Origin: an uncultured Bacilli bacterium
Lineage (GTDB): Bacteria > Bacillota_I > Bacilli_A > RF39 > UBA660
Reading direction: 5' to 3'
Assembly (NCBI GenBank): GCA_934086185.1
Contig: CAKOHW010000003.1
Coordinates: 69,155-133,154 of the forward strand
DNA: 64,000 bases
Numbering within the stretch: position 1 is the first letter of the stretch; every line of letters begins with the position of its first letter. The notes below the pieces were generated by a model, which worked only from the letters and a program-made list of their open reading frames with translations, had not been told where the DNA came from and ran no database searches. A program made the translations under genes and the position numbers. Shown here one piece after another: positions 1-13,223 of this stretch.

Positions 1-64
1 AAGTCAAAAAAATAAAGTAGTAATTGTTAATGCACCTACTAAAAATGATGAAATAAAAGAATAC

Positions 65-1426
65 TTGGGTTATACTTGGTCTACTAGAAAAGGTAGTGAG
101 GGTATTAAATATTTAGGTGTTAAAAATGATGCGGGAGTATTAGATAAAAATCATGGAATAAATACAATACAAACACCTTTATTTAATCCTTCTGATTTAG
201 AAGACCCAGAAAAAATTAATTCTATAATCAGAAATAATTTTGCAGGACAAGAATTAGATTTTGATTATGACAATGTAAAATATCATGATTTAATTGATTT
301 ACTTGATTTTAAGACAACCGCATTTACAAAAAATATTAAAACAGCAAATATTAGAAGAAATATTATTCTAAAAGAAGGCTATAAGTTGTACAACTTATCC
401 AATAGTAAAAATTTTGATTTAAGTATTGGAAAAAGAGTTATCACATCTGATATATCAAAGAATGGTAAGATTCCTATATATAGTGCAAATGTAAATGATA
501 TATTTGGTTATAGCGAATCAACTTTAGCAAGTTTATCAGATTTTAGTACGCCATCAGTTTTATGGGGAATAGATGGTGATTGGAATGTTGGTTATGTCAA
601 AGAAAATATTAAATTTTTTCCAACTGATCATTGCGGAGTATTAAGAATAAAATCAGAGGAATTATTACCTAAATATGTAATGTACGCATTAGAATATGAA
701 GGAATACAATCTAGATTTTCACGTAGTAATAGAGCGTCAACTCAACGTGTAAAAGATTTAGTTATTCAAGCACCTAGCGTCGCAGAACAGAAAAAAATTA
801 TTTCTGAATTAGATGAATATGATAATAAAATAAAAATATTAAACAAGGATATAAATGAATTAACTAACGAGATAGATGTTAAATTTGATGAAATGTTTGT
901 CGGAAAAGGAATTGAAACATCAAAGATTAACTCATTATATAGTGAATTATATGCAGGTGGTGATACACCAATTCAAACTTCTAAGAAACGAGATGATGAA
1001 TTTAAATATCCTATTTATTCAAATGGCACAAAAAATGCAGGTCTATTGTATTACTCTAAAGAATATAAAACGTCTAAAGAAGCAGTAACAATTTCAGCAA
1101 GAGGAACAATAGGTTATACACAAATTAGAAAGCCCAATTTTACTGCAGTTGTTCGACTAATAGTAATGGTTCCAAATGATAAAGTGAATATTTATTACTT
1201 AAAATCTGCAATTGATCATATTGAATTTAATAAAACAGGTAATGGCGCTGGTCAATTAACTGTTCCAGATTTTGCAAATATGGATATTATTTTACCTAAT
1301 AAAAAAGAACAGGAAATATTTGCTAAATTTGTTTTAGACAATTATAAAAAAATAGATACATTAGAACAAGAATTGATTACGGCTGGTACAAATAAAGAAG
1401 AACTATTAAATAAATACTTTAAATAA
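65..1426 (+). CDS. hsdS: Type I restriction-modification specificity subunit HsdS with two target-recognition domains
   Basis: 453 aa. Two TRD-like halves are each followed by the conserved HsdS spacer motifs (QAPSVAEQKKIISELDEYDNKI and ILPNKKEQEIFAKFVLDNYKKIDTLEQELI). The upstream ORF ends at nt 15. Confidence 0.75.
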   Translation: MGYTWSTRKGSEGIKYLGVKNDAGVLDKNHGINTIQTPLFNPSDLEDPEKINSIIRNNFAGQELDFDYDNVKYHDLIDLLDFKTTAFTKNIKTANIRRNIILKEGYKLYNLSNSKNFDLSIGKRVITSDISKNGKIPIYSANVNDIFGYSESTLASLSDFSTPSVLWGIDGDWNVGYVKENIKFFPTDHCGVLRIKSEELLPKYVMYALEYEGIQSRFSRSNRASTQRVKDLVIQAPSVAEQKKIISELDEYDNKIKILNKDINELTNEIDVKFDEMFVGKGIETSKINSLYSELYAGGDTPIQTSKKRDDEFKYPIYSNGTKNAGLLYYSKEYKTSKEAVTISARGTIGYTQIRKPNFTAVVRLIVMVPNDKVNIYYLKSAIDHIEFNKTGNGAGQLTVPDFANMDIILPNKKEQEIFAKFVLDNYKKIDTLEQELITAGTNKEELLNKYFK

Positions 1427-1517
1427 TAAAAAATATTTGATTTTTGTATTTTTGTTAATTAAATATTAATCAAAATATAATTTATTATTTAGAATTATTA
1501 TAGGGAGTGAAGTATTA

Positions 1518-3314
1518 ATGAAGTTAAAGTTTATAAAAATTAATAATTATAAATCTTTTGCTAATGATTGTAATCAATTGTTTGTTTCTGAATTAAATAC
1601 TATAGTTGGTAAAAATGAATCTGGAAAATCAAATTTAATAGAAGCTATTGGCAATATAAATAAAATTGGAGCAACATCTATTGACTATTTTAAAAATATA
1701 AATAAGAATTCGAAAGAAGATATAAGTATTGAACTAACTTTTGAATTGGATGCAATTGATAAAAAGAGATATAATTATCATGAAAATGTAATTGTAAGTA
1801 TAAATGGCTATAAGAATTGTGAATTTGATGAAAAATTTGGAGATGTTATTTCAAGTATAAATAATATTTCAAATATCAGAGATGAAATACTTAGATTTAT
1901 AGATGAGAATAGTATTCCTATTAGCAACCCTGAGAATAAATTAGTTTATGACCCAATTATCGAAGGTGTAAAGCAAATTAACAAAAAAATAATCTTTAAA
2001 CCAGATGGCTATGACAATTTTATTAACAGGTTAATTGGTACAAAAAATGAAGTATTAATGGAATTATGTAATTTGTTTGAAAAGCTATTTAAAATACTAG
2101 ATGAAGTTTATCCGAATTTTCCAGAATTCATATTAATTTCTAGTAATGAATTAAAAAAAACATATACGAGTTCTGAATTATATGATGAATTAGATAGTTT
2201 TAGTTCAATACTATATCAATTCTTAGAAGTATGTAAAATAAATTCTACTGATATAATTGAAACATCTAATTTAGATGATGCTGTTGATATTTTAAATAGA
2301 ACTAATGAATATAATAATTTGATTAGAACTAACTTTGTAGAAAAATTTAATAATTTTTATAAACAAGAAATTATTGATATGGTTATTAATTTTAATTCAC
2401 ATAAAATGACTGTTGCAATTAAGACGAAAGGAAGATTTCTTCCAATAGAAGAGCGCAGTAATGGATTAAAATGGTACATTAATATTTTTATTCAATTGAT
2501 GTTTAGAGATTTGATTGGAAAGAGCAGAAATAAAATAATTTTATTAGATGAACCTGGTGTTTTTCTACATTCAATAGCTCAAGAAGAATTATTAAGTTTA
2601 TTATATGATTTATCAACTAGAGATAATCAAGTTATTTATACTACTCATTCACCAGCAATGATTAATTTCGATAAAATACAAAATATTAGAGCTATTGAAA
2701 AAGATGATAATGGCAATAGTTGTATATATAATAAAATATCCGAATTTCCAATCAGTTCTAAATCTAAGTATGAAACAATAACTCCGATTATAAATGCAAT
2801 GGGTTATAAAATGAAGTATAATATTGGAATTAATTCAAAAAAATTTAATTTAATTGTTGAAGGAATTACTGATTATTTATATTTACAATCATATATAAAT
2901 ATTAAAAAAATAAAAGATTATAACATAATAGCGAGTACAGGAGCTGATAATATTCCTGCAATATCATCCATTTTATATGGATGGGGATGCCAATTTATAA
3001 TAGTATTAGACAATGATAATAAGGGTAGAAGTGTATATGATTCAATAAATTCGAGTGATATGCCTTATAAAGATAAGATTATATTTGTTAACGGGAAAAA
3101 ATATACAAAAAATTTGGATGAAGAAATTGAAGATATTTTTTCAGAAGAAGATAAAATAAAATTTAATTTAAATAGTCTTGATTATAAAGATAAAAAGTAT
3201 TTTTATGCATATGCTTGCTATGAAAGAATAAAAACAAAAGTAGATAAATTTGATAATCACACTATTTCGAATTTTGATAGATTATTTAAAAATATAGGTG
3301 ATTTAAAGAAATAA
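1518..3314 (+). CDS. OLD-family ATP-dependent endonuclease (ABC-type ATPase N-domain plus C-terminal Toprim domain)
   Basis: 598 aa. Walker A GKNESGKSN, Walker B ILLDEPGVFLH and H-loop TTHSP are present. The C-terminal Toprim signature is LIVEGITDYLYLQ ... ASTGADNIP ... FIIVLDNDNKG. RBS GGGAGTG upstream. No UvrD-like partner gene follows. Confidence 0.75.
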   Translation: MKLKFIKINNYKSFANDCNQLFVSELNTIVGKNESGKSNLIEAIGNINKIGATSIDYFKNINKNSKEDISIELTFELDAIDKKRYNYHENVIVSINGYKNCEFDEKFGDVISSINNISNIRDEILRFIDENSIPISNPENKLVYDPIIEGVKQINKKIIFKPDGYDNFINRLIGTKNEVLMELCNLFEKLFKILDEVYPNFPEFILISSNELKKTYTSSELYDELDSFSSILYQFLEVCKINSTDIIETSNLDDAVDILNRTNEYNNLIRTNFVEKFNNFYKQEIIDMVINFNSHKMTVAIKTKGRFLPIEERSNGLKWYINIFIQLMFRDLIGKSRNKIILLDEPGVFLHSIAQEELLSLLYDLSTRDNQVIYTTHSPAMINFDKIQNIRAIEKDDNGNSCIYNKISEFPISSKSKYETITPIINAMGYKMKYNIGINSKKFNLIVEGITDYLYLQSYINIKKIKDYNIIASTGADNIPAISSILYGWGCQFIIVLDNDNKGRSVYDSINSSDMPYKDKIIFVNGKKYTKNLDEEIEDIFSEEDKIKFNLNSLDYKDKKYFYAYACYERIKTKVDKFDNHTISNFDRLFKNIGDLKK

Positions 3315-3346
3315 CTTCTTGCCAATTTGGCAAGAAGTATTTTTTA
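3315..3346 (+). terminator. Rho-independent terminator after the OLD nuclease gene
   Basis: Perfect inverted repeat ACTTCTTGCCAA / TTGGCAAGAAGT followed by ATTTTTT. Confidence 0.75.
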
Positions 3347-4640
3347 TCTTATGGGAGAAAGACCTTTATCATTACTTACATCACCAGGTGGCGAAGGCGC
3401 TGAAGTAATTTACGCACTTAGAAATAATGATAAATTGGCTAGTAAAATACTTAATGGATTATCTGAAAGTGGACAAACTATAAGAAAATATTATCAAAGA
3501 CGTTTGCCAAGTGATACTTCTAAAGATTATTATTATATAATAAGAAATACTCCAAATGCTGAAACAGTTATTGTTGAATATGGATTTTTAGATAATAAAA
3601 ATGATGCTGATAGAATAAAACAAAATTATAAAAAATATGCAGATGCTGTTGTGGATGCTGTTTTAGATTATAAAGGTATATCAGTTAATAATGATGGATA
3701 TTATATTGTTAAAAAAGGAGATTCATTATGGAGTATTGCTAACAATAATGGAATAACTGTAAGTGATTTGAAAAAACTAAATAATTTGACTAGTAATAAT
3801 TTAAGTATAGGACAAAAGTTAAAATTAAAAAATAATAATGATAACAATGGAAGCAACGATAATTTATATTCTAGTACATATGTGGTTAAGAATGGAGATA
3901 CGTTATATAGTATTGCTAAAAAATATAATGTAAGTGTTGATGATATAAAAAGTGTTAATAATTTAACAAATAATAATCTGACAATTGGACAAGTTATTAA
4001 AATACCTGGTATAAATATAGAAGAACCTAATACATATACTGTAAAAAAGGGAGATTCGTTATGGAGTATAGCAAATAAGTATGGTACAAGTGTAGAAGAA
4101 CTTAAAAAAGTTAATAATCTTACAAGTAATGTATTATCTAGTGGACAAGTATTAAAATTACCTGGTACTAGTAAAGAAAATACAGTTAATACTTATACTG
4201 TTAAACGTGGAGATACATTATATTCTATTGCTAGTAAATATAATATTAGTGTTGATAAATTAAAAGAAATTAACAATTTAACTAGTAATAATTTAAGTAT
4301 TGGACAAACATTAAATCTTATTGATAAAACTGATAATATAACTAGTGAAGATTATGATTACTATACAGTAAAGAATGGAGATACATTATATAGTATTGCT
4401 AATAAATTTGATACTACAGTTAGTAAGATAAAAGAATTAAATAATTTACCAAATAATATGTTGAGTGTTGGGCAAATGATAAAAATACCTGGTAATTTAT
4501 CTAGTACATATGTAGTTAAGAGTGGAGATACACTATGGAGTATTGCTAAAGATAATAATATTAGTGTTGATAAGTTAAAAGAAATTAACAATTTAAATAG
4601 TAATAATTTAACTATTGGTCAACAATTATTAATAAATTAA
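3327..4640 (+). pseudogene. 5'-truncated N-acetylmuramoyl-L-alanine amidase (Amidase_3 C-terminal half only) fused to six LysM repeats
   Basis: The ORF opens inside the terminator hairpin. Its first ~115 aa align to the distal half of Amidase_3 (GAEVIY, LASKILNGL, YYIIRNTPNAETVIVEYGFLDN, ADAVVDAVLDY). The proximal SIHxNA metal-binding part and any signal peptide are absent. Six LysM units follow, each of the form YxVKxGD(T/S)L(W/Y)SIAxKY...L...N.L.IGQ.L. Confidence 0.
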
Positions 4641-4709: not shown

Positions 4710-6047
4710 TTGGTGAAGATAGAATTAAAAGCTAGGAAATTTGCTATAAAAGCTCATAAGGGTCAAGTTAGAAAAAGTGATAAAGATAAACCTATGATAA
4801 TTCATCCTATAAATGTTGCAAATATTTTAAAAGAATATGATTTTGATCAAAATGTGATATCTGCTGGATATTTGCACGATGTTGTAGAAGATACTAAATA
4901 TGAAATAGAAAACATAAAAGAAATGTTTGGTGAAGATATTGCATCTTTAGTATGGGGTGCTAGTGAAGAAGATAAAAGTTTATCTTGGGAAGAAAGAAAA
5001 GAACATACAATAGAAAAAGCAAAAACATTAGATTTAAGACATAAAGCAGTAATTTGTGCGGATAAAATAAGTAATTTAGAAGATTTAAGAATATTATATG
5101 AACTAAAGGGAGAAAGTGTTTTTTCTTCATTTAAAAGAGGTTTTGAATCTCAAAAATGGTATTATACTGAAGTTTATAATAGTTTAATTATGAATGAAGA
5201 TAAAAATCATCCTATGTTTATAAGATTAAAAGAAATAATAGATTATATATTTTATAATAAAAATTCTAATGAATATGTTAAAACTATTATTTTTAAAGAA
5301 AATATAGATGAATATAATCTTTTAAAAAATATACATTATAGAAAAGAAGAAGTTTTTAAATTAAAAAATGTTTTATCTAAGAAAAAACCATATGTAATAG
5401 AATTTACTGGAACTCCTAGAACTGGTAAAACTAGTTTAATAAATAATTTAAAAGATTTTTTTAAGAAGAAGGGTTTTAGTGTTTGTATTATTGAGGAATT
5501 TACTACTTCATTAAAATATAAGACGCAAATATATCCAATTCTTAAAAATGAATCTAAAAATGTAGTTAATACTGAAATACCAAAGTATGTATTAAAAGAT
5601 TTGGATGATGCAATAAATAGTAAATATGATATTATTATTGTAGATAGATCTTTATTTGATAGACTTATATGGGTAGATAGATTATTTTTAAAAAAGGGTA
5701 TGAGTGATGAAGAATATAATGAATATAAAAGTACATATATACCATTAATTAAGGAAAAGATTAATATTATTGTATCATTATATACTGATAGTTTGACTTG
5801 TTTAAAAAGGGATTATCATGCTAATTTATCACTTGAAAATAGAACATTTTTAAATGTAGATAATGTTAATGAATATAATAAATCGTTATTAAATATGGAA
5901 AAGTTATCTATAAAAGAGAATATTAATTTTAAAATGTTTGATACTACTAATAAGAATCAAAGAGAAATATCATTTGAAGTTATAGATAGTATATTAAGTG
6001 ATATGAGAAAATACTATTTATCTTTGGTTATTGATGAATTTAATTAA
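4710..6047 (+). CDS. Fusion protein: RelA/SpoT-type HD domain (small alarmone hydrolase-like) plus a C-terminal P-loop deoxynucleoside/nucleotide kinase-like domain
   Basis: GTG start with RBS GAGGTG. N-terminal KARKFAIKAHKGQVRK ... IIHPINVANIL ... AGYLHDVVEDT matches the ppGpp-hydrolase HD motif set (H, HD, D). The C-terminal half carries Walker A GTPRTGKTS and a dNK-like DRSLFDRLIW motif. Confidence 0.6.
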   Translation: MVKIELKARKFAIKAHKGQVRKSDKDKPMIIHPINVANILKEYDFDQNVISAGYLHDVVEDTKYEIENIKEMFGEDIASLVWGASEEDKSLSWEERKEHTIEKAKTLDLRHKAVICADKISNLEDLRILYELKGESVFSSFKRGFESQKWYYTEVYNSLIMNEDKNHPMFIRLKEIIDYIFYNKNSNEYVKTIIFKENIDEYNLLKNIHYRKEEVFKLKNVLSKKKPYVIEFTGTPRTGKTSLINNLKDFFKKKGFSVCIIEEFTTSLKYKTQIYPILKNESKNVVNTEIPKYVLKDLDDAINSKYDIIIVDRSLFDRLIWVDRLFLKKGMSDEEYNEYKSTYIPLIKEKINIIVSLYTDSLTCLKRDYHANLSLENRTFLNVDNVNEYNKSLLNMEKLSIKENINFKMFDTTNKNQREISFEVIDSILSDMRKYYLSLVIDEFN

Positions 6048-9891: not shown

Positions 9892-11601
9892 GTGAAAAAG
9901 ATAGTTCCTATAATTATAATAGTTATATGTTTATTTATATCTGTTACAGGTATAGTTACATTTTTTATTGTTAATAATGGGTCTTTTTTAACTAGTTTTA
10001 AAATTACTAGAGTTAATAATATAGGATTAGATTATTATGTATATTTTCAAAATGTTAAAGCTGCTACTAGTTATGATGTTATTGTTTATGATTCTGAGAA
10101 CTTAATTGTACATAGAGAAAATATAAAAAATAATAGTTTGACAATTAATTTTGATAACTTAAAATATAATGAAACATATAAGATTGTTGTTGTTGCTTAT
10201 GATAAGAATGGTAATAAAAAGAGCGTCAAAGAACCTTATACTTTTATGTGGGAAGATTTATCTTTAGCAAGTACTAATACTGTTTTAATGGATAATGAGA
10301 ATGATTATATAGTAGAGTTTATAGGTAATTATAAGAAAAAAAAGTATTATTTAAATATTAAAGAAGATAATGATGTAATTAAGAGTGTTAGAATAAATGG
10401 AGAGTCTTATGTAATTAAGAATGATTTATTTAAAGATAGAAAAACTAAGTATCTTTTAGAAATTGTTGAAGATAATACGGTTATTTCTAGTATGTATGTT
10501 TATAATTTGATGAGTCCTATTACAGATATTAGTATTATTAATCCTGGTAATGGTGATATGAAAGATTATGATGATGTTCCTTTAAGTTTTGAAGGTGGAG
10601 ATAATGCTACCAATTATATTTTTGAGTTATATCAAAATAATAAATTAATTAGAAGAAAAGAAATAAAAAATAAAAATATAATATTATCTAATAATTTATT
10701 TAATAAGGCTTCTACTTATGTTGCTAAAATAACTGCAAGTTATGCAGATTATATAGATTATTCTAAAGTGGCAAGTGTAGAGTTTACTATTAATGCTAAA
10801 GAAAGTTTAAAACCGGTTTATACTAATTATAATTATAGTTTAATTAAGAGTGGTACTGAAATAGAGTTATTAAATGATGACAAGGATGCAATTATTTATT
10901 ATACTACTGATGGTAGTGAACCTAATCAAGATAGTTTAGTTTATAAAGATAAGATAGTAATTAATAATAATATGACTATTAAGGCTATTGCTAAAAAAGA
11001 TAAGATGAATGATTCTATTATAAGTAGTTTTGATTTTAAGGTAGGTAGTAAGAGTAATTATAAAGTATATTTAAGTGCTTCTAATCAAAATGCTAATTTA
11101 GGTGTTAGTGAAGTAGGTTATACTAACGAAAAGAAAGAAATGAATGATGTTGCAAATTATATACAAAAACGTTTAGAAAGTTATGGTGTTAAAGTATATA
11201 GAAATGAGTATGGTGATTTAAATAGATGGGTTGCTGATAGTACTTATTTGGGTGTTGATTTGCATATTGCAATCCATTCAAATGCAAGTGAAGAACATTT
11301 GTCTTATGGAATAGAAACTTGGGTAAATGAACCTGATAGTAAAACTTATTCTTTGGCCAGTAAAATACAAAATAATTTAATGAGTATTTATTATAAAAAT
11401 GAAGATAGTTTAGCAAATAGGGGAGTAAAATATGCTTATGGTTCTTTAGGAGAAGTTAATCCTAATTATGTTCCGTTTGGAATATTGGTAGAAGTTGCTC
11501 ATCATGATTATAAAGATGATGCTAAATGGATTGTTGATAACAAAGAAAAAATTGGTAATAATATAGCAGATTCTATATTGGAATATTTTCAAATTAAATA
11601 A
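9892..11601 (+). CDS. Cell-wall amidase-like protein: TM anchor, FN3/chitobiase-C-like domains, C-terminal Amidase_3-like domain
   Basis: GTG start after a GGAG RBS. Central YYTTDGSEPNQDS motif is typical of the chitobiase/hexosaminidase C-domain. The C-terminus has VDLHIAIHSNAS ... GIETWV ... ILVEVAHHD, an Amidase_3-like metal-site pattern. Confidence 0.5.
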   Translation: MKKIVPIIIIVICLFISVTGIVTFFIVNNGSFLTSFKITRVNNIGLDYYVYFQNVKAATSYDVIVYDSENLIVHRENIKNNSLTINFDNLKYNETYKIVVVAYDKNGNKKSVKEPYTFMWEDLSLASTNTVLMDNENDYIVEFIGNYKKKKYYLNIKEDNDVIKSVRINGESYVIKNDLFKDRKTKYLLEIVEDNTVISSMYVYNLMSPITDISIINPGNGDMKDYDDVPLSFEGGDNATNYIFELYQNNKLIRRKEIKNKNIILSNNLFNKASTYVAKITASYADYIDYSKVASVEFTINAKESLKPVYTNYNYSLIKSGTEIELLNDDKDAIIYYTTDGSEPNQDSLVYKDKIVINNNMTIKAIAKKDKMNDSIISSFDFKVGSKSNYKVYLSASNQNANLGVSEVGYTNEKKEMNDVANYIQKRLESYGVKVYRNEYGDLNRWVADSTYLGVDLHIAIHSNASEEHLSYGIETWVNEPDSKTYSLASKIQNNLMSIYYKNEDSLANRGVKYAYGSLGEVNPNYVPFGILVEVAHHDYKDDAKWIVDNKEKIGNNIADSILEYFQIK

Positions 11602-11825: not shown

Positions 11826-13223
11826 ATGAGAATATATAATACGTTAACAAGAAAAGTAGAAGAATTTAAAAGTATAAAACCAAATTATGTAGGATTTTAT
11901 ACATGTGGTCCCACTGTTTACCATTATGCACATATAGGTAATATGAGAAATTATATAGGACATGATGTTTTAGAAAAAACTTTAGAATATTTAGGTTATG
12001 AAGTAAAAAGAGTTATGAATATAACAGATGTAGGTCATTTGAGTAGTGATAGTGATTCTGGTGAAGATAAAATGGTTAAAAGTGCAAAGGCACAACATAA
12101 ATCTGTTATGGATATTGCTAAATTTTATACGGATGCTTTCTTTAAAGATTTTAAGAAACTTAATTGTGATATGCCAGATGTAGTTGAACCAGCGACTAAT
12201 CTTATAGATTATTATATAAAAATTATTGAAGTTTTAATAGAAAAAGGTTATGCATATAAGTCTGGTGGAAATGTTTATTTTGATATAAGTAAGTTAAATG
12301 ATTATTATAAATTAACTAATCATAAATTTGATGAAATGGTAGTAGGTGCTCGTGAAGAAGTACTTTATGATGATAATAAACATAATCAAGGTGATTTTGC
12401 ATTATGGTTTACTAAGAGTAAATTTGATAGTCAAGAACTTAAATGGGATAGTCCATTTGGTGTTGGATATCCTGGTTGGCATATTGAATGTACTGGGATA
12501 TCTTTGAAACATTTAGGTGAATATTTAGATATTCATGGTGGCGGAGTAGATAATATTTTTCCACATCATACAAATGAAATTGCACAAAGTGAAGCATATA
12601 TTGGGCATAAATGGTGTAATTATTGGTTTCATAATGAACATTTAAATGATGAAAGTGGAAAAATGAGTAAAAGTAAAGGTGCTGTTTTAAGTGTTTCAGT
12701 ATTAGAGGAAAAAGGTTATAATCCTTTGAGTTTTAGATATTTATGTTTAAATAGTCATTATAGAAAGCAATTGGTATTTAGTTTTGATAATTTAGATATT
12801 GCATCAAATGCTTATAAAAAATTATTGAATAAAATTAATAATATACCTAAAGAAGGAAATATAGATAATGAATTATTCGATAAATATAATAAACAATTTA
12901 TTGATTATATAAGTGATGATTTAAATACTGCTAATGCAATTTCGTTATTATACGATGTAATAAAAAATGATGAATTAAATGGTAATACTAAGTTAGAATT
13001 AATTAAGAGTTTTGATAAAGTATTTAGTTTAGATTTAATAAATGATAATAATGAATCAGTTGATAGCAGACACGATTATATAATGTCTAAAATAGAAGAA
13101 AGAAAAGAAGCTAAGAAAAATAAAAATTTTGAATTAGCTGATAAAATAAGAGACGATTTATCTAAAGAAGGTATTATTTTGATTGATACTAGAGAAGGTA
13201 CTACATATAAAATAGAAAAATAA
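11826..13223 (+). CDS. cysS: Cysteine--tRNA ligase
   Basis: HIGH motif (GPTVYHYAHIGNMRNY) and KMSKS motif (GKMSKSKGA). Start taken at ATG 11826 with RBS GGAGGG (track ORF begins 11769). Confidence 0.9.
   Translation: MRIYNTLTRKVEEFKSIKPNYVGFYTCGPTVYHYAHIGNMRNYIGHDVLEKTLEYLGYEVKRVMNITDVGHLSSDSDSGEDKMVKSAKAQHKSVMDIAKFYTDAFFKDFKKLNCDMPDVVEPATNLIDYYIKIIEVLIEKGYAYKSGGNVYFDISKLNDYYKLTNHKFDEMVVGAREEVLYDDNKHNQGDFALWFTKSKFDSQELKWDSPFGVGYPGWHIECTGISLKHLGEYLDIHGGGVDNIFPHHTNEIAQSEAYIGHKWCNYWFHNEHLNDESGKMSKSKGAVLSVSVLEEKGYNPLSFRYLCLNSHYRKQLVFSFDNLDIASNAYKKLLNKINNIPKEGNIDNELFDKYNKQFIDYISDDLNTANAISLLYDVIKNDELNGNTKLELIKSFDKVFSLDLINDNNESVDSRHDYIMSKIEERKEAKKNKNFELADKIRDDLSKEGIILIDTREGTTYKIEK

What the first reader, a model, noticed from the sequence alone, without database searches (positions are those of the whole stretch)
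65..3346. Defence islet: hsdS followed by a stand-alone OLD-family ATPase/Toprim nuclease
The hsdS gene has two target-recognition domains, and hsdM presumably lies just off the left edge. Directly after it sits a 598-aa protein with a complete ABC-ATPase motif set (GKNESGKSN, ILLDEPG, TTHSP) and a C-terminal Toprim domain (LIVEGITD ... ASTGADNIP ... VLDNDNKG). That is the architecture of the P2 Old / class-1 OLD, GajA and fused PARIS proteins. The next gene is not a UvrD-like helicase but a gene remnant, so this is not a Gabija or class-2 OLD arrangement. OLD-type nucleases embedded in type I RM loci are typical defence-island content. The cassette ends in a very strong terminator.
Basis: partly seen in the sequence, partly recalled or inferred. 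Interest (0 to 1): 0.7.

Follow-up and report, generated by a model that had tools for sequence, protein, structure and literature searches.

The report
Defence cargo of an amidase-splitting mobile element
The two genes are real phage-defence genes, but they are the cargo end of a 9.8-kb mobile element that a serine recombinase inserted into a cell-wall amidase gene; the kind is familiar, though the element family itself appears undescribed.

Summary
The sequence features exist as described, but two interpretations are wrong. The 'hsdS' ORF has no stop upstream. It is the C-terminal two-TRD module of a 1215-aa single-chain type IIG restriction-methylase-specificity enzyme, not a type I subunit. 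The 598-aa protein is an intact OLD-family ATPase/Toprim nuclease with every ATPase and Toprim catalytic residue conserved. Its best PDB hit is the class 1 Thermus OLD. No helicase, reverse transcriptase or other partner is conserved across eight homologue contexts. The terminator is real (-19 kcal/mol).

The 'gene remnant' is the 3' part of a LysM amidase gene split by the element itself. An identical metagenome contig shows the 5' part 9.8 kb upstream, next to a large serine recombinase. Joining the halves at a GG crossover (window 3387-3388) restores a 508-aa ORF with one complete Amidase_3 domain.

Recombinase relatives lie beside a split amidase half in most of 79 species-representative loci from uncultured gut Bacilli. 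In the 27 elements with both borders (26 of those loci plus this one), the insertion is at the same codon. Cargo there includes RM, Hachiman, Iet, Pycsar and others, and spread is clearly horizontal.

The defence function and excision are inferred, not shown.

The parts
1..1426 (+). Last 474 codons (read from window base 2, plus stop) of a 1215-aa single-chain type IIG restriction-methyltransferase-specificity gene. The gene starts 2,222 nt left of the window, at L001 6262. TRD1 is at about window 416-901 and TRD2 at about 953-1375.
   Evidence: No in-frame stop upstream of 65. The ORF is continuous in L001. Pfam HSDR_N_2 (weak), N6_Mtase, Eco57I and Methylase_S x2. PADLOC REase_MTase_IIG scores 1288.6 bits. 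Against its relative in L021, the TRD part is 20-42% identical while the nuclease and MTase parts are 62-91% identical.
1452..1507 (+). Promoter-like site (TTGTTA-18-TATAAT, 1452-1481) and AGGGAG ribosome-binding site (1502-1507) ahead of the OLD gene, inside a 91-nt spacer with no terminator.
   Evidence: Consensus scan and sequence. These are consensus matches only. Promoter-like sites are no more frequent here than in shuffled sequence (69 found versus 66.5 expected).
1518..3314 (+). OLD-family nuclease gene, 598 aa. ABC-type ATPase with a helical insertion spans residues 1 to about 404, a conserved linker about 405-440, and a Toprim domain about 443-550 followed by two C-terminal helices.
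   Evidence: Pfam AAA_15 82 bits; OLD-like_TOPRIM 22.1 bits, just under its 23.2 cut-off. PADLOC Old 99 bits is the top model. Invariant in 36 homologues: G31-S38, R313/S314/G316, D344/E345, E448, D452, D498, D500, E538; position 546 is K or R. AF2 model has mean pLDDT 85. The best PDB match is 6P74, Thermus scotoductus class 1 OLD, by both sequence and fold.
3314..3346 (+). Intrinsic terminator closing the OLD gene and the cargo: an 11-bp stem with 5 G-C pairs, a 3-nt loop and a T-run.
   Evidence: Terminator scan found 3 sites against 0.5 expected. RNA fold gives -19 kcal/mol, z = -6.66, with 0 of 200 shuffles as stable.
3347..3388 (.). Right end of the element: the P arm of attP (..CCTTTATCATTACTTACATCACCA) and the predicted GG crossover dinucleotide of attR at 3387-3388.
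   Evidence: The P arm is an imperfect inverted repeat of the P' arm next to attL: 18 of 30 positions match, with equal 8-nt spacers either side of GG. The GG model reproduces the motif HINAGGGEGAEVIY seen in intact orthologues. It also gives the same attB for two different elements in hosts whose amidases are 99% identical, by my reading of the L028 and L093 junctions printed (identity).
3387..4640 (+). 3' portion of the interrupted LysM N-acetylmuramoyl-L-alanine amidase gene: the second half of the Amidase_3 domain plus six LysM repeats. The 5' portion is at L001 1810-2084, outside the window.
   Evidence: Pfam Amidase_3 profile positions 84-172 of 174, plus 6 LysM. The N fragment covers profile 1-79, and the joined catalytic part covers 1-172 in a single stretch at 112.7 bits. 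The joined ORF is 1527 nt, 508 aa, in frame. Intact 505-507-aa orthologues with the same downstream synteny occur in related species.

Best explanation
**What it is.** Window 1-3388 is the right-hand third of a 9,787-bp integrative element. The rest of the element lies left of the window and is visible on the identical contig L001.
- A 549-aa large serine recombinase (LSR), encoded at the other end of the element, inserted it at a GG dinucleotide. That GG lies in the codons for the conserved HINAGG|GEGAE stretch of a LysM cell-wall amidase gene. The insertion cuts the single Amidase_3 domain in two.
- The element has a small backbone: the recombinase, a 143-aa protein and a wHTH (winged helix-turn-helix) protein resembling a replication initiator. 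It also has swappable cargo.
- The cargo here is two genes:
  - a stand-alone, class-1-type OLD nuclease with its own promoter-like site and a strong terminator about 50 bp inside the element border.

**How it most likely works (inferred).**
- The RM enzyme methylates host DNA and cuts unmodified incoming DNA.
- The OLD protein is an ATP-controlled, two-metal Toprim nuclease. On a phage cue it cleaves nucleic acid and stops phage replication. The substrate could be DNA, nicked as by Vibrio cholerae OLD (Vc OLD), or tRNA anticodon stems, as cut by P2 Old.
- The recombinase spreads this package between species by targeting a highly conserved coding sequence.

**Shown versus inferred.** Gene structures, motif conservation, element borders, the family-wide target site and horizontal spread are shown. 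Nuclease substrate, trigger, anti-phage activity and present-day excision are inferred.
For: **Element and borders**
- L001 is identical to the window over the 13,314 bases they share. Its gene order is MetK, NUDIX, amidase 5' fragment, 317-aa ORF, LSR with Resolvase + Recombinase + Zn_ribbon_recom domains, small ORFs, HTH_36 protein, 1215-aa RM, OLD, amidase 3' fragment.
- Joining at GG gives a 508-aa ORF with one complete Amidase_3 domain.
- The attP arms are symmetric around GG.
- Related species carry the intact gene in the same downstream synteny.

**Family**
- 79 loci from species-representative genomes carry LSR relatives at 60-98% identity. Most of them show a split amidase half beside the recombinase.
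- In 26 of these loci both borders could be mapped, and all lie at the same codon. With this element that makes 27 complete elements, 3.2-12.6 kb long.
- LSR identity and amidase identity are uncorrelated (rho 0.03 over 276 pairs). In 47 pairs the LSR is at least 92% identical while the amidase is only 47-82% identical.
- Cargo amounts to 91 protein families among 211 ORFs. It includes a C5-methylase family present in 15 elements, a MutH-type endonuclease, type I HsdR, type IV REase, AlwI REase with a D12 methylase, Hachiman HamA/HamB, IetA/IetS, Pycsar PycC, DUF4238-Pers and Fic.

**OLD**
- Catalytic residues map by spacing onto Thermus scotoductus OLD (Ts OLD) residues E377/D381, D431/D433, S478/E480 and R487.
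- 6P74 is the top PDB hit by sequence and by fold.
- Eight homologue contexts share no conserved neighbour and none has an adjacent UvrD-type helicase.
- The subfamily has 331 representative clusters at E <= 1e-30.
Against: - No experiment supports any function.
- The Toprim half alone matches existing defence HMMs only weakly: Old 13.8 bits, RT-Toprim_I-C 15.6 bits. Pfam OLD-like_TOPRIM is just below its cut-off. No NCBIfam model reaches its cut-off.
- tblastn at E <= 1e-5 finds only two weak matches in 50,697 phage records, so P2 Old itself does not match at that threshold. This is a divergent OLD lineage.
- No empty site or circular form was found for this species. No intact amidase at 90% identity or more exists in the protein collection, so this copy could be fixed and immobile.
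- The reviewed definition of class 1 describes single genes away from other defence genes (PMC10568477). Here, and in several homologues, the gene sits next to RM genes.
Confidence: 0.8

Rival explanations
1. One reading: a chromosomal type I RM locus (hsdM off the left edge, stand-alone hsdS) with an embedded OLD gene, followed by a decayed gene remnant.
For: HsdS-type TRDs are present. One OLD homologue, P0010, does sit next to a real type I RM with HsdM and HsdR.
Against: The TRD ORF is open to the window edge. On the identical contig it continues into a 1215-aa nuclease-methylase-specificity fusion that scores 1288.6 bits against the type IIG model. No hsdR is present. The 'remnant' rejoins its other half exactly in frame.
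Confidence: 0.03
2. The RM enzyme and OLD form one functional two-gene system. OLD acts as a back-up that fires when the type IIG enzyme is blocked, for example by an anti-restriction protein, in the manner of PARIS or of PrrC within type I loci.
For: A 37%-identical OLD homologue (P0107, indexed in 180 blocks of the collection) overlaps by 20 nt the end of an unrelated MmeI-type type IIG RM gene on a different mobile element. Other homologues lie next to type I RM or next to C5 methylases with McrBC. In the window, no terminator separates RM from OLD.
Against: The pairing is not conserved. The closest RM relative (L021, 65% identity) is followed by four other ORFs rather than by OLD. OLD homologues also occur beside Fic, beside a Mob relaxase, or alone among housekeeping genes. 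RM genes are the commonest defence genes, so adjacency is expected by chance. OLD has its own promoter-like site.
Confidence: 0.2
3. The element is mainly a reversible switch of the amidase gene ('regulated gene integrity', like skin, SPbeta or gin). The recombinase excises it under some condition to rebuild a working autolysin, and the defence genes are passengers.
For: Excision at GG would restore a perfect ORF. Both gene halves stay open in nearly all of the 26 mapped loci. Two hosts carrying different elements have amidases that differ by 57 synonymous but only 9 non-synonymous codons. No intact allele of this species was found, which suggests stable carriage.
Against: Open halves and low dN/dS are equally expected if insertions are recent, and the horizontal-spread signal says many are. 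No attP or attB junction was detected, though two of those three scans were mis-specified. No recombination directionality factor was identified. The hosts appear to be small-genome uncultured Bacilli (record titles), and no sporulation genes were seen in the annotated part of the window. A second Amidase_3 gene lies 5 kb away and could make the split gene dispensable.
Confidence: 0.12
4. The 598-aa protein belongs to another OLD class (Gabija GajA, retron effector or fused PARIS), or is a housekeeping RecF/SbcC/SMC-like ATPase.
For: The ATPase half scores about equally against AriA (84.2 bits) and Old (84.3 bits). It also matches GajA, PtuA and retron I-B ATPase models at 40-55 bits. Foldseek lists Rad50 and SMC heads with similar E-values.
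Against: The element has no GajB-type helicase, no reverse transcriptase and no AriB-type match. Only OLD and GajA structures align over both domains. SMC_N is below its cut-off. The gene occurs in only 1 of 27 complete elements and sits on mobile elements or in defence islands elsewhere, which does not fit a housekeeping role.
Confidence: 0.04

Closest known systems
Class 1 OLD family nucleases: P2 Old, Thermus scotoductus OLD (PDB 6P74), Vibrio cholerae Vc OLD, E. coli YbjD
   Same: [quoted passage not shown] Residues equivalent to Ts OLD metal-A, metal-B and basic residues are all present. It stands alone with no helicase or RT partner. Like Vc OLD, it sits on a mobile defence element beside another defence system (PMC12392090).
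   Different: Sequence is very divergent: only about 120 residues align to 6P74 by phmmer, only two weak matches turn up among 50,697 phage records, and the Toprim half is barely seen by current HMMs. The helical insertion is predicted at about residues 105-280, which appears longer than the four-helix dimerisation domain described for Ts OLD; I did not measure the latter. The host is an uncultured low-GC gut Bacilli bacterium. Substrate (DNA nick versus tRNA cut) is unknown.
Single-chain type IIG/IIB restriction-modification enzymes with HsdS-like specificity modules (AloI/CjeI type, recalled from my own knowledge; PADLOC model REase_MTase_IIG PDLC03624)
   Same: An N-terminal PD-(D/E)xK-type nuclease region, a gamma-type N6-adenine methyltransferase and two TRDs, all in one 1215-aa chain. 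It matches the 1271-position model at 1288.6 bits.
   Different: Recognition sequence and cut positions are unknown. The TRDs differ almost completely from the nearest relative. It is not MmeI-type, which has a single TRD.
Elements driven by large serine recombinases that interrupt genes or carry defence cassettes: skin, SPbeta/spsM, gin in gerE (PMC5595907, PMC4191935), SCCmec-linked defence cassettes (PMC11470126), 'regulated gene integrity' elements (PMC7192596)
   Same: A large serine recombinase with all three domains. The element is inserted inside a coding sequence, and precise excision would restore that sequence. The elements are small, not prophage-like, and carry swappable defence cargo.
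   Different: The target is a LysM Amidase_3 gene, which is not among the targets named in the papers I retrieved. The hosts are uncultured gut Bacilli, apparently with small genomes, rather than known spore-formers. Two recombinase clades (61% identical) use the same attB and the same GG but insert in opposite orientations. Regulated excision has not been shown.
PARIS (AriA/AriB, class 4 OLD) and Gabija (GajA/GajB, class 2 OLD)
   Same: An ABC ATPase coupled to a Toprim nuclease. The ATPase half matches the AriA model over its full length.
   Different: There is one fused protein and no GajB. No AriB-type match was found for the Toprim half, and the fused AriAB model matches only the ATPase part.

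Membership tests
OLD family nuclease | N-terminal ABC-type ATPase with Walker A, signature-like motif, Walker B and H-loop | tested here: met
   G31-S38, R313/S314/G316 and D344/E345 are invariant in 36 homologues. TTHSP is at 375-379, with His replaced by Gln in one clade. AAA_15 scores 82 bits.
OLD family nuclease | C-terminal Toprim domain with metal-A ligands (E, DxD), metal-B ligands (D, S/T/E-x-E) and a basic residue | tested here: met
   E448, D452, D498, D500 and E538 are invariant. Position 536 is E, S or T, and position 546 is K or R. Spacing matches Ts OLD E377/D381, D431/D433, S478/E480 and R487. The correspondence rests on motif spacing and the fold hit to 6P74, not on a residue-level structural superposition.
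OLD family nuclease | Metal-dependent nuclease and ATPase activity | not testable with these tools
   Requires purified protein.
Class 1 OLD (stand-alone) | [quoted passage not shown] | tested here: met
   The next feature is a terminator, then the element border. None of the element's ORFs carries a helicase or RT domain. No adjacent helicase appears in eight homologue contexts.
Class 1 OLD (stand-alone) | Lacks the class 2 Toprim helical insert and the C-terminal helical domain | tested here: inconclusive
   The AF2 model shows only two helices (557-572 and 580-597) after K546, which resembles Ts OLD. At 598 aa, however, the protein is as long as class 2 proteins, and no domain-level superposition was run.
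Class 1 OLD (stand-alone) | Single gene not proximal to other defence genes, as worded in the review PMC10568477 | tested here: not met
   It lies directly downstream of a type IIG RM gene, and several homologues sit in defence islands. Vc OLD, also filed as class 1, likewise sits beside DarTG (PMC12392090), so this criterion is soft.
Gabija GajA (class 2 OLD) | Adjacent gajB (UvrD-like helicase) | tested here: not met
   No such gene is in the element.
PARIS (class 4 OLD), including fused AriAB | AriB-type Toprim (DUF4435) module, separate or fused | tested here: not met
   The C-terminal 194 aa match only the Old and RT-Toprim_I-C models, and weakly. The AriAB model matches residues 268-382 only.
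Type I RM specificity subunit (HsdS) | Separate S gene beside hsdM and hsdR | tested here: not met
   The TRDs are the tail of a 1215-aa fused ORF, and no hsdM or hsdR is present.
Type IIG single-chain RM enzyme | Nuclease, N6-adenine methyltransferase and target-recognition domains in one polypeptide | tested here: met
   HSDR_N_2 (weak, residues 76-152), N6_Mtase, Eco57I and Methylase_S x2. REase_MTase_IIG scores 1288.6 bits.
Type IIG single-chain RM enzyme | Cleavage at a fixed distance from the site, and methylation of the same site | not testable with these tools
   Requires enzyme assays or methylome data.
Integrative element driven by a large serine recombinase | Recombinase with Resolvase, Recombinase and zinc-ribbon domains | tested here: met
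   87.6, 70.9 and 37 bits respectively. PHROG integrase phrog_95 scores 319 bits.
Integrative element driven by a large serine recombinase | attL and attR share a central dinucleotide, attP has inverted-repeat arms, and an intact target exists in relatives | tested here: met
   GG crossover; arms match at 18 of 30 positions with equal 8-nt spacers. The same attB is deduced from two different elements in hosts with 99%-identical amidases (junctions, identity). Intact orthologues exist.
Integrative element driven by a large serine recombinase | Present-day excision or integration (circular form or empty site in the same species) | tested here: inconclusive
   No intact allele at 90% identity or more. 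The two metagenome scans used wrongly reconstructed junctions and say nothing. The correct attP gave no hit in viral contigs.
Gene-intervening element with regulated excision (skin/SPbeta/gin type) | Interrupts a coding sequence that precise excision restores | tested here: met
   In silico only: a 508-aa ORF with a complete Amidase_3 domain.
Gene-intervening element with regulated excision (skin/SPbeta/gin type) | Excision under developmental or environmental control, with the target gene needed at that stage | not testable with these tools
   Requires culture or read-level time-course data. Whether the host sporulates was not established.

The most novel reading that the evidence does not exclude
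The amidase-targeting elements may be more than parasites carrying immune genes. They could be a conserved, reversible switch. On a signal such as phage attack or stress, the serine recombinase would excise the element. That would rebuild a LysM autolysin (abortive lysis, or a change in cell separation) and at the same time release the defence cassette for transfer. A narrower version is that type IIG RM plus OLD is a true two-gene system, with OLD guarding the RM enzyme.
Probability: 0.1. Interest if true: 0.8.

Novelty: new member of a known kind. Interest (0 to 1): 0.42.

Why it matters
The OLD gene and the fused RM enzyme are further examples of known defence types, so on their own they matter little.

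What is useful is the frame around them: a compact family of recombinase-driven elements, 3-13 kb long.
- **Target.** In the 27 elements with both borders mapped, from uncultured gut Bacilli, the insertion is at one codon of one amidase gene.
- **Cargo.** The elements carry a rotating set of immune systems. That gives precise island borders in organisms nobody can culture. It also yields a list of unannotated cargo families that are candidates for new defence genes by association.
- **Tools.** Two diverged serine recombinase clades have deducible attP/attB pairs on the same target, which is of interest for genome-engineering tool discovery.
- **OLD biology.** Class 1 OLD biology is still thin, with three or four studied proteins. 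This well-populated divergent subfamily, which occurs twice directly behind type IIG enzymes, offers a testable question about RM-OLD cooperation.

Tried and rejected
1. **Mis-specified junction scans.** I first took the whole 8-bp overlap CAGGTGGC as the crossover and built a 507-aa gene. Intact orthologues have one more glycine. Symmetry of attP and the L028/L093 pair showed the crossover is GG, giving a 508-aa gene. Their zero hits are uninformative.
2. **Correct attP in viral contigs.** No hit.
3. **Recombinase in viral contigs.** One hit, L101. It is simply a bacterial contig carrying the L075 element, so there is no evidence the element is a phage or satellite.
4. **OLD in phages.** No hit in viral contigs, and only two weak hits in 50,697 phage records.
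5. **NCBIfam.** Nothing reached a cut-off for RM or OLD.
6. **The 317-aa and 143-aa element proteins.** No Pfam, PADLOC or PHROG match. The 317-aa protein has only 21 homologue clusters, none annotated.
7. **Sporulation link.** The annotated stretches of the window are housekeeping genes such as CysRS, UvrB, DivIVA, RecA and RNase Y. This neither supports nor excludes sporulation.
8. **Intact near-identical amidase alleles.** I looked among the 120 retrieved proteins for alleles matching other element-bearing hosts. None were found.
9. **Other readings of OLD.** RecF/SMC, Gabija, retron and PARIS were considered and rejected, as set out under the rival explanations.

Full report
**1. What is in the window**

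ORF listing and sequence reading confirm the 598-aa ORF at 1518-3314 and an upstream ORF ending at 1426.

The upstream ORF, however, has no stop codon before its nominal TTG start at 65. Its frame is open to window base 2 and reads SQKNKVVIVNAPTKNDEIKEYLGYTWS.... PADLOC places those first 120 residues at positions 773-883 of a 1271-position type IIG restriction-methylase model.

The hairpin at 3314-3338 followed by a T-run is a good intrinsic terminator. It has 11 pairs, an MFE of -19 kcal/mol and z = -6.7, and none of 200 shuffles folds as well.

The next ORF (3327-4640) contains only profile positions 84-172 of the 174-position Amidase_3 model, followed by six LysM repeats.

**2. The left flank**

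The exact OLD protein is on record on 19 contigs. One of them, L001 (a 133.8-kb ENA metagenome contig), matches the window with 0 mismatches over the 13,314 bases they share. Window base 1 corresponds to L001 base 8484.

L001 shows this gene order upstream of the window's start:
- MetK and a NUDIX gene;
- a 102-aa ORF holding Amidase_3 profile positions 1-79;
- a 317-aa ORF with no family match;
- a 549-aa large serine recombinase on the opposite strand (Resolvase, Recombinase and Zn_ribbon_recom domains);
- a 40-aa and a 143-aa ORF;
- an HTH_36 protein that resembles the N-terminus of phage replication initiators;
- a 1215-aa ORF that runs into the window.

That 1215-aa ORF carries a weak HSDR_N_2 nuclease match, N6_Mtase, Eco57I and two Methylase_S stretches. 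It scores 1288.6 bits against PADLOC REase_MTase_IIG.

So 'hsdS' is the tail of a single-chain R-M-S enzyme, and there is no hsdM or hsdR. Its closest relative in another element (L021) is 62-91% identical over the nuclease and methylase parts. Over the TRD part, which is exactly the part the window shows, identity is only 20-42%. That is the usual signature of specificity swapping.

**3. Element borders**

The two amidase fragments end and begin at the conserved stretch HINAGG / GEGAEVIY.

I first joined them over the 8-bp overlap CAGGTGGC, which gave 507 aa. Intact orthologues have one more glycine: HINAGGG[ED]GAEVIY heads the junction motifs of the 79 intact clusters.

Placing the crossover at a GG dinucleotide resolves this. 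The GG is at L001 2083-2084 in attL and at 11870-11871 in attR, which is window 3387-3388. This placement has three consequences:
- It gives attB AATGCAGGT-GG-TGGCGAAGG and a 508-aa ORF.
- It makes attP symmetric: ATTACTTA-CATCACCA-GG-CTCAGATA-TAAGTAAT, with arms matching at 18 of 30 positions.
- When I applied the same GG rule to the L028 and L093 junction sequences printed, both gave the same attB, AATGCAGGAGGTGGCGAAGGT. Those two hosts have 99%-identical amidases but carry different elements.

The joined catalytic region is one complete Amidase_3 domain, covering profile 1-172 at 112.7 bits.

The element is 9,787 bp. The OLD terminator lies about 50 bp inside its right border.

Related species, with amidases 68-74% identical, carry the gene intact at 505-507 aa. 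They share the same downstream neighbours: a 151-aa membrane protein and the LCP protein in all, and in L007/L008 also Lactamase_B, DUF3006, a second Amidase_3 protein and CysRS.

**4. A whole family of such elements**

Scanning one genome per species (GTDB representatives) with the recombinase returned 79 loci at 60-98% identity. Almost all are from MAGs labelled uncultured Bacilli, Tenericutes, Erysipelotrichales or CAG genomes.

tblastn with the amidase halves shows a split half beside most of the recombinase genes. In the 26 loci where both halves were found, the N-terminal half ends at the same residue and the C-terminal half starts at the next. Both halves are open reading frames in nearly all of them. 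With this element, that gives 27 complete elements of 3.2-12.6 kb.

Two recombinase clades (about 61% identical) use the same attB and the same GG but sit in opposite orientation.

Recombinase identity and host amidase identity are uncorrelated (Spearman 0.03 over 276 pairs). In 47 pairs the recombinases are at least 92% identical while the amidases are only 47-82% identical. This is clear horizontal spread.

The backbone is the recombinase plus the HTH protein (16 of 27 elements) and the 143-aa protein (10 of 27). The remainder is variable: 91 families among 211 ORFs.

Sampled cargo is largely recognisable defence:
- a C5-methylase family present in 15 elements, and a MutH-type endonuclease;
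- type I HsdR;
- a type IV methyl-directed enzyme (667 bits);
- AlwI endonuclease with a D12 methylase;
- Hachiman HamA/HamB;
- IetA/IetS;
- a Pycsar cyclase;
- DUF4238-Pers, Fic, SLFN/AlbA_2 and a 1620-aa STAND-like protein.

OLD occurs only in the element of this window. It is therefore cargo, not part of the element's own machinery.

**5. The OLD protein**

Family searches rank OLD-type models first:
- Pfam AAA_15 at 82 bits; OLD-like_TOPRIM at 22.1 bits against a 23.2 cut-off;
- PADLOC Old at 99 bits, ahead of AriA at 82 bits and GajA at 55 bits or less;
- SMC_N at 31 bits, below its cut-off.

Taken alone, the Toprim half is only faintly recognised: Old 13.8 bits, RT-Toprim_I-C 15.6 bits, and no AriB match. 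No NCBIfam model passes its cut-off. This is a divergent lineage.

In an alignment of 36 homologues (36-78% identity) the following are invariant: Walker A, the signature-like RSNG, Walker B DE, E448 and D452, D498-x-D500, and E538. Position 536 is E, S or T, and position 546 is K or R. By spacing these equal the Ts OLD metal-A ligands (E377, D431, D433), the metal-B ligands (D381, S478, E480) and R487. Mutating those residues abolishes Ts OLD nuclease activity (PMC7049728).

The AF2 model has mean pLDDT 85. It shows an ATPase core with a long helical insertion (about 105-280), a low-confidence but conserved linker (407-438), and a four-strand Toprim domain. Its best PDB match by fold is 6P74, the class 1 Ts OLD (E = 1.7e-14). 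6P74 is also the best match by sequence.

The subfamily is large: 331 representative clusters at E <= 1e-30, almost all about 600 aa long.

**6. Context of homologues**

Eight lineages were inspected:

| Homologue | Context |
|---|---|
| this element | directly after an AloI-like type IIG RM gene |
| P0107 | overlaps by 20 nt the end of an MmeI-type IIG RM gene, on a tyrosine-integrase/RepA_N element |
| P0010 | between AAA_21/RloB and a type I RM |
| P0037 | beside C5 methylases and McrBC |
| P0028 | GmrSD island |
| P0004 | Fic/HTH island with a tyrosine integrase |
| P0032 | Mob_Pre element with a serine recombinase |
| P0076 | alone among housekeeping genes |

No neighbour is conserved and none is an adjacent UvrD-type helicase or a reverse transcriptase. 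This fits the class 1 (stand-alone) definition.

The two independent 'type IIG RM then OLD' tandems leave open a functional link. I rate that at about 0.2.

**7. Mechanism**

*Shown:*
- gene structures;
- conserved catalytic sets;
- element borders;
- the family-wide target site;
- horizontal spread.

*Inferred from studied relatives:*
- The OLD protein is an ATP-controlled two-metal nuclease acting in phage defence.
- Vc OLD nicks DNA and blocks phage genome replication (PMC12392090).
- P2 Old cuts tRNA anticodon stems after ATP hydrolysis (PMC12445682).
- Nothing here discriminates between these two substrates.
- The RM enzyme should give first-line restriction with a bipartite site.
- The recombinase explains how the package moves.

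How the excised circle transfers between cells is unknown. No relaxase, capsid or packaging genes were seen.

**8. What remains open**

I could not show present-day excision, for three reasons:
- No intact amidase allele at 90% identity or more exists in the protein collection, whereas the split C-terminal fragment cluster has 28 member sequences.
- My two metagenome scans used wrong junction strings and must be ignored.
- The correct attP is absent from viral contigs.

The L028/L093 amidases differ by 57 synonymous and 9 non-synonymous codons. Both gene halves stay open in nearly all of the mapped loci. These observations fit either recent insertions or a gene kept useful through reversible excision. 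I give the switch reading about 0.1.

**9. Verdict**

It is wrong about type I RM, about the 'remnant', and about what the unit is.

The genes themselves are new members of known kinds. The amidase-targeting recombinase element family did not turn up in the papers I could search, but it belongs to a familiar class of site-specific defence-carrying elements.

Noticed in passing
window 4710-6047: A 445-aa fusion of a RelA/SpoT-type HD hydrolase domain (HD_4) with a P-loop AAA_28 domain sits directly after the amidase gene. This slot varies between relatives: TIR_2 + NUDIX + acetyltransferase in L007, and nothing in L009. It may be a second small variable or defence slot.
   Followed up: partly
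L001 2164-3117 (outside the window, left end of the element): A 317-aa ORF between attL and the recombinase has no Pfam, PADLOC or PHROG match and only 21 unannotated homologue clusters. It contains an RRYYYH string that could be an Rx4H (HEPN-like) motif. In other elements the same slot holds DUF4238-Pers, SLFN/AlbA_2 or methyltransferase genes.
   Followed up: partly
L102-L104, 3222-7779: A 37%-identical OLD homologue (P0107, indexed in 180 blocks of the collection) overlaps by 20 nt the end of an MmeI-type type IIG RM gene, on an element with a tyrosine integrase, RepA_N and TnpV. This is a second, independent 'type IIG RM then OLD' tandem.
   Followed up: partly
L021 12481, 13856, 14980: Three copies of the P'-arm-like sequence lie between the recombinase and the amidase 5' fragment. 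This suggests tandem accretion or leftover ends of earlier elements at the same site.
   Followed up: no
L024-L096 (26 loci): Two recombinase clades about 61% identical have unrelated attP arms (ATTACTTA... versus ACCACTAG...). They use the same attB and the same GG but insert in opposite orientation relative to the amidase gene.
   Followed up: partly
window 2640-2654 and 2736-2831 (OLD residues 375-379 and 407-438): In one clade of the OLD subfamily the H-loop histidine is replaced by glutamine (TTQLP). The ATPase-Toprim linker is modelled with pLDDT below 50 yet contains invariant T422, P423 and G429.
   Followed up: no
window 9892-11601: A second Amidase_3 protein (569 aa, CHB_HEX_C_1 + Fn3_assoc + Amidase_3) lies 5 kb downstream and is syntenic in the relative L007/L008. 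It could compensate for the split LysM amidase.
   Followed up: no
L035, L037, L047, L071, L085, L087, L093, L096 cargo ORFs (families F14, F15, F17, F22, F23, F33): Several recurrent cargo families in these elements have no Pfam match. Some of them (F14, F22, F23, F33) sit beside C5-methylase genes. They are candidates for uncharacterised restriction or defence genes.
   Followed up: no
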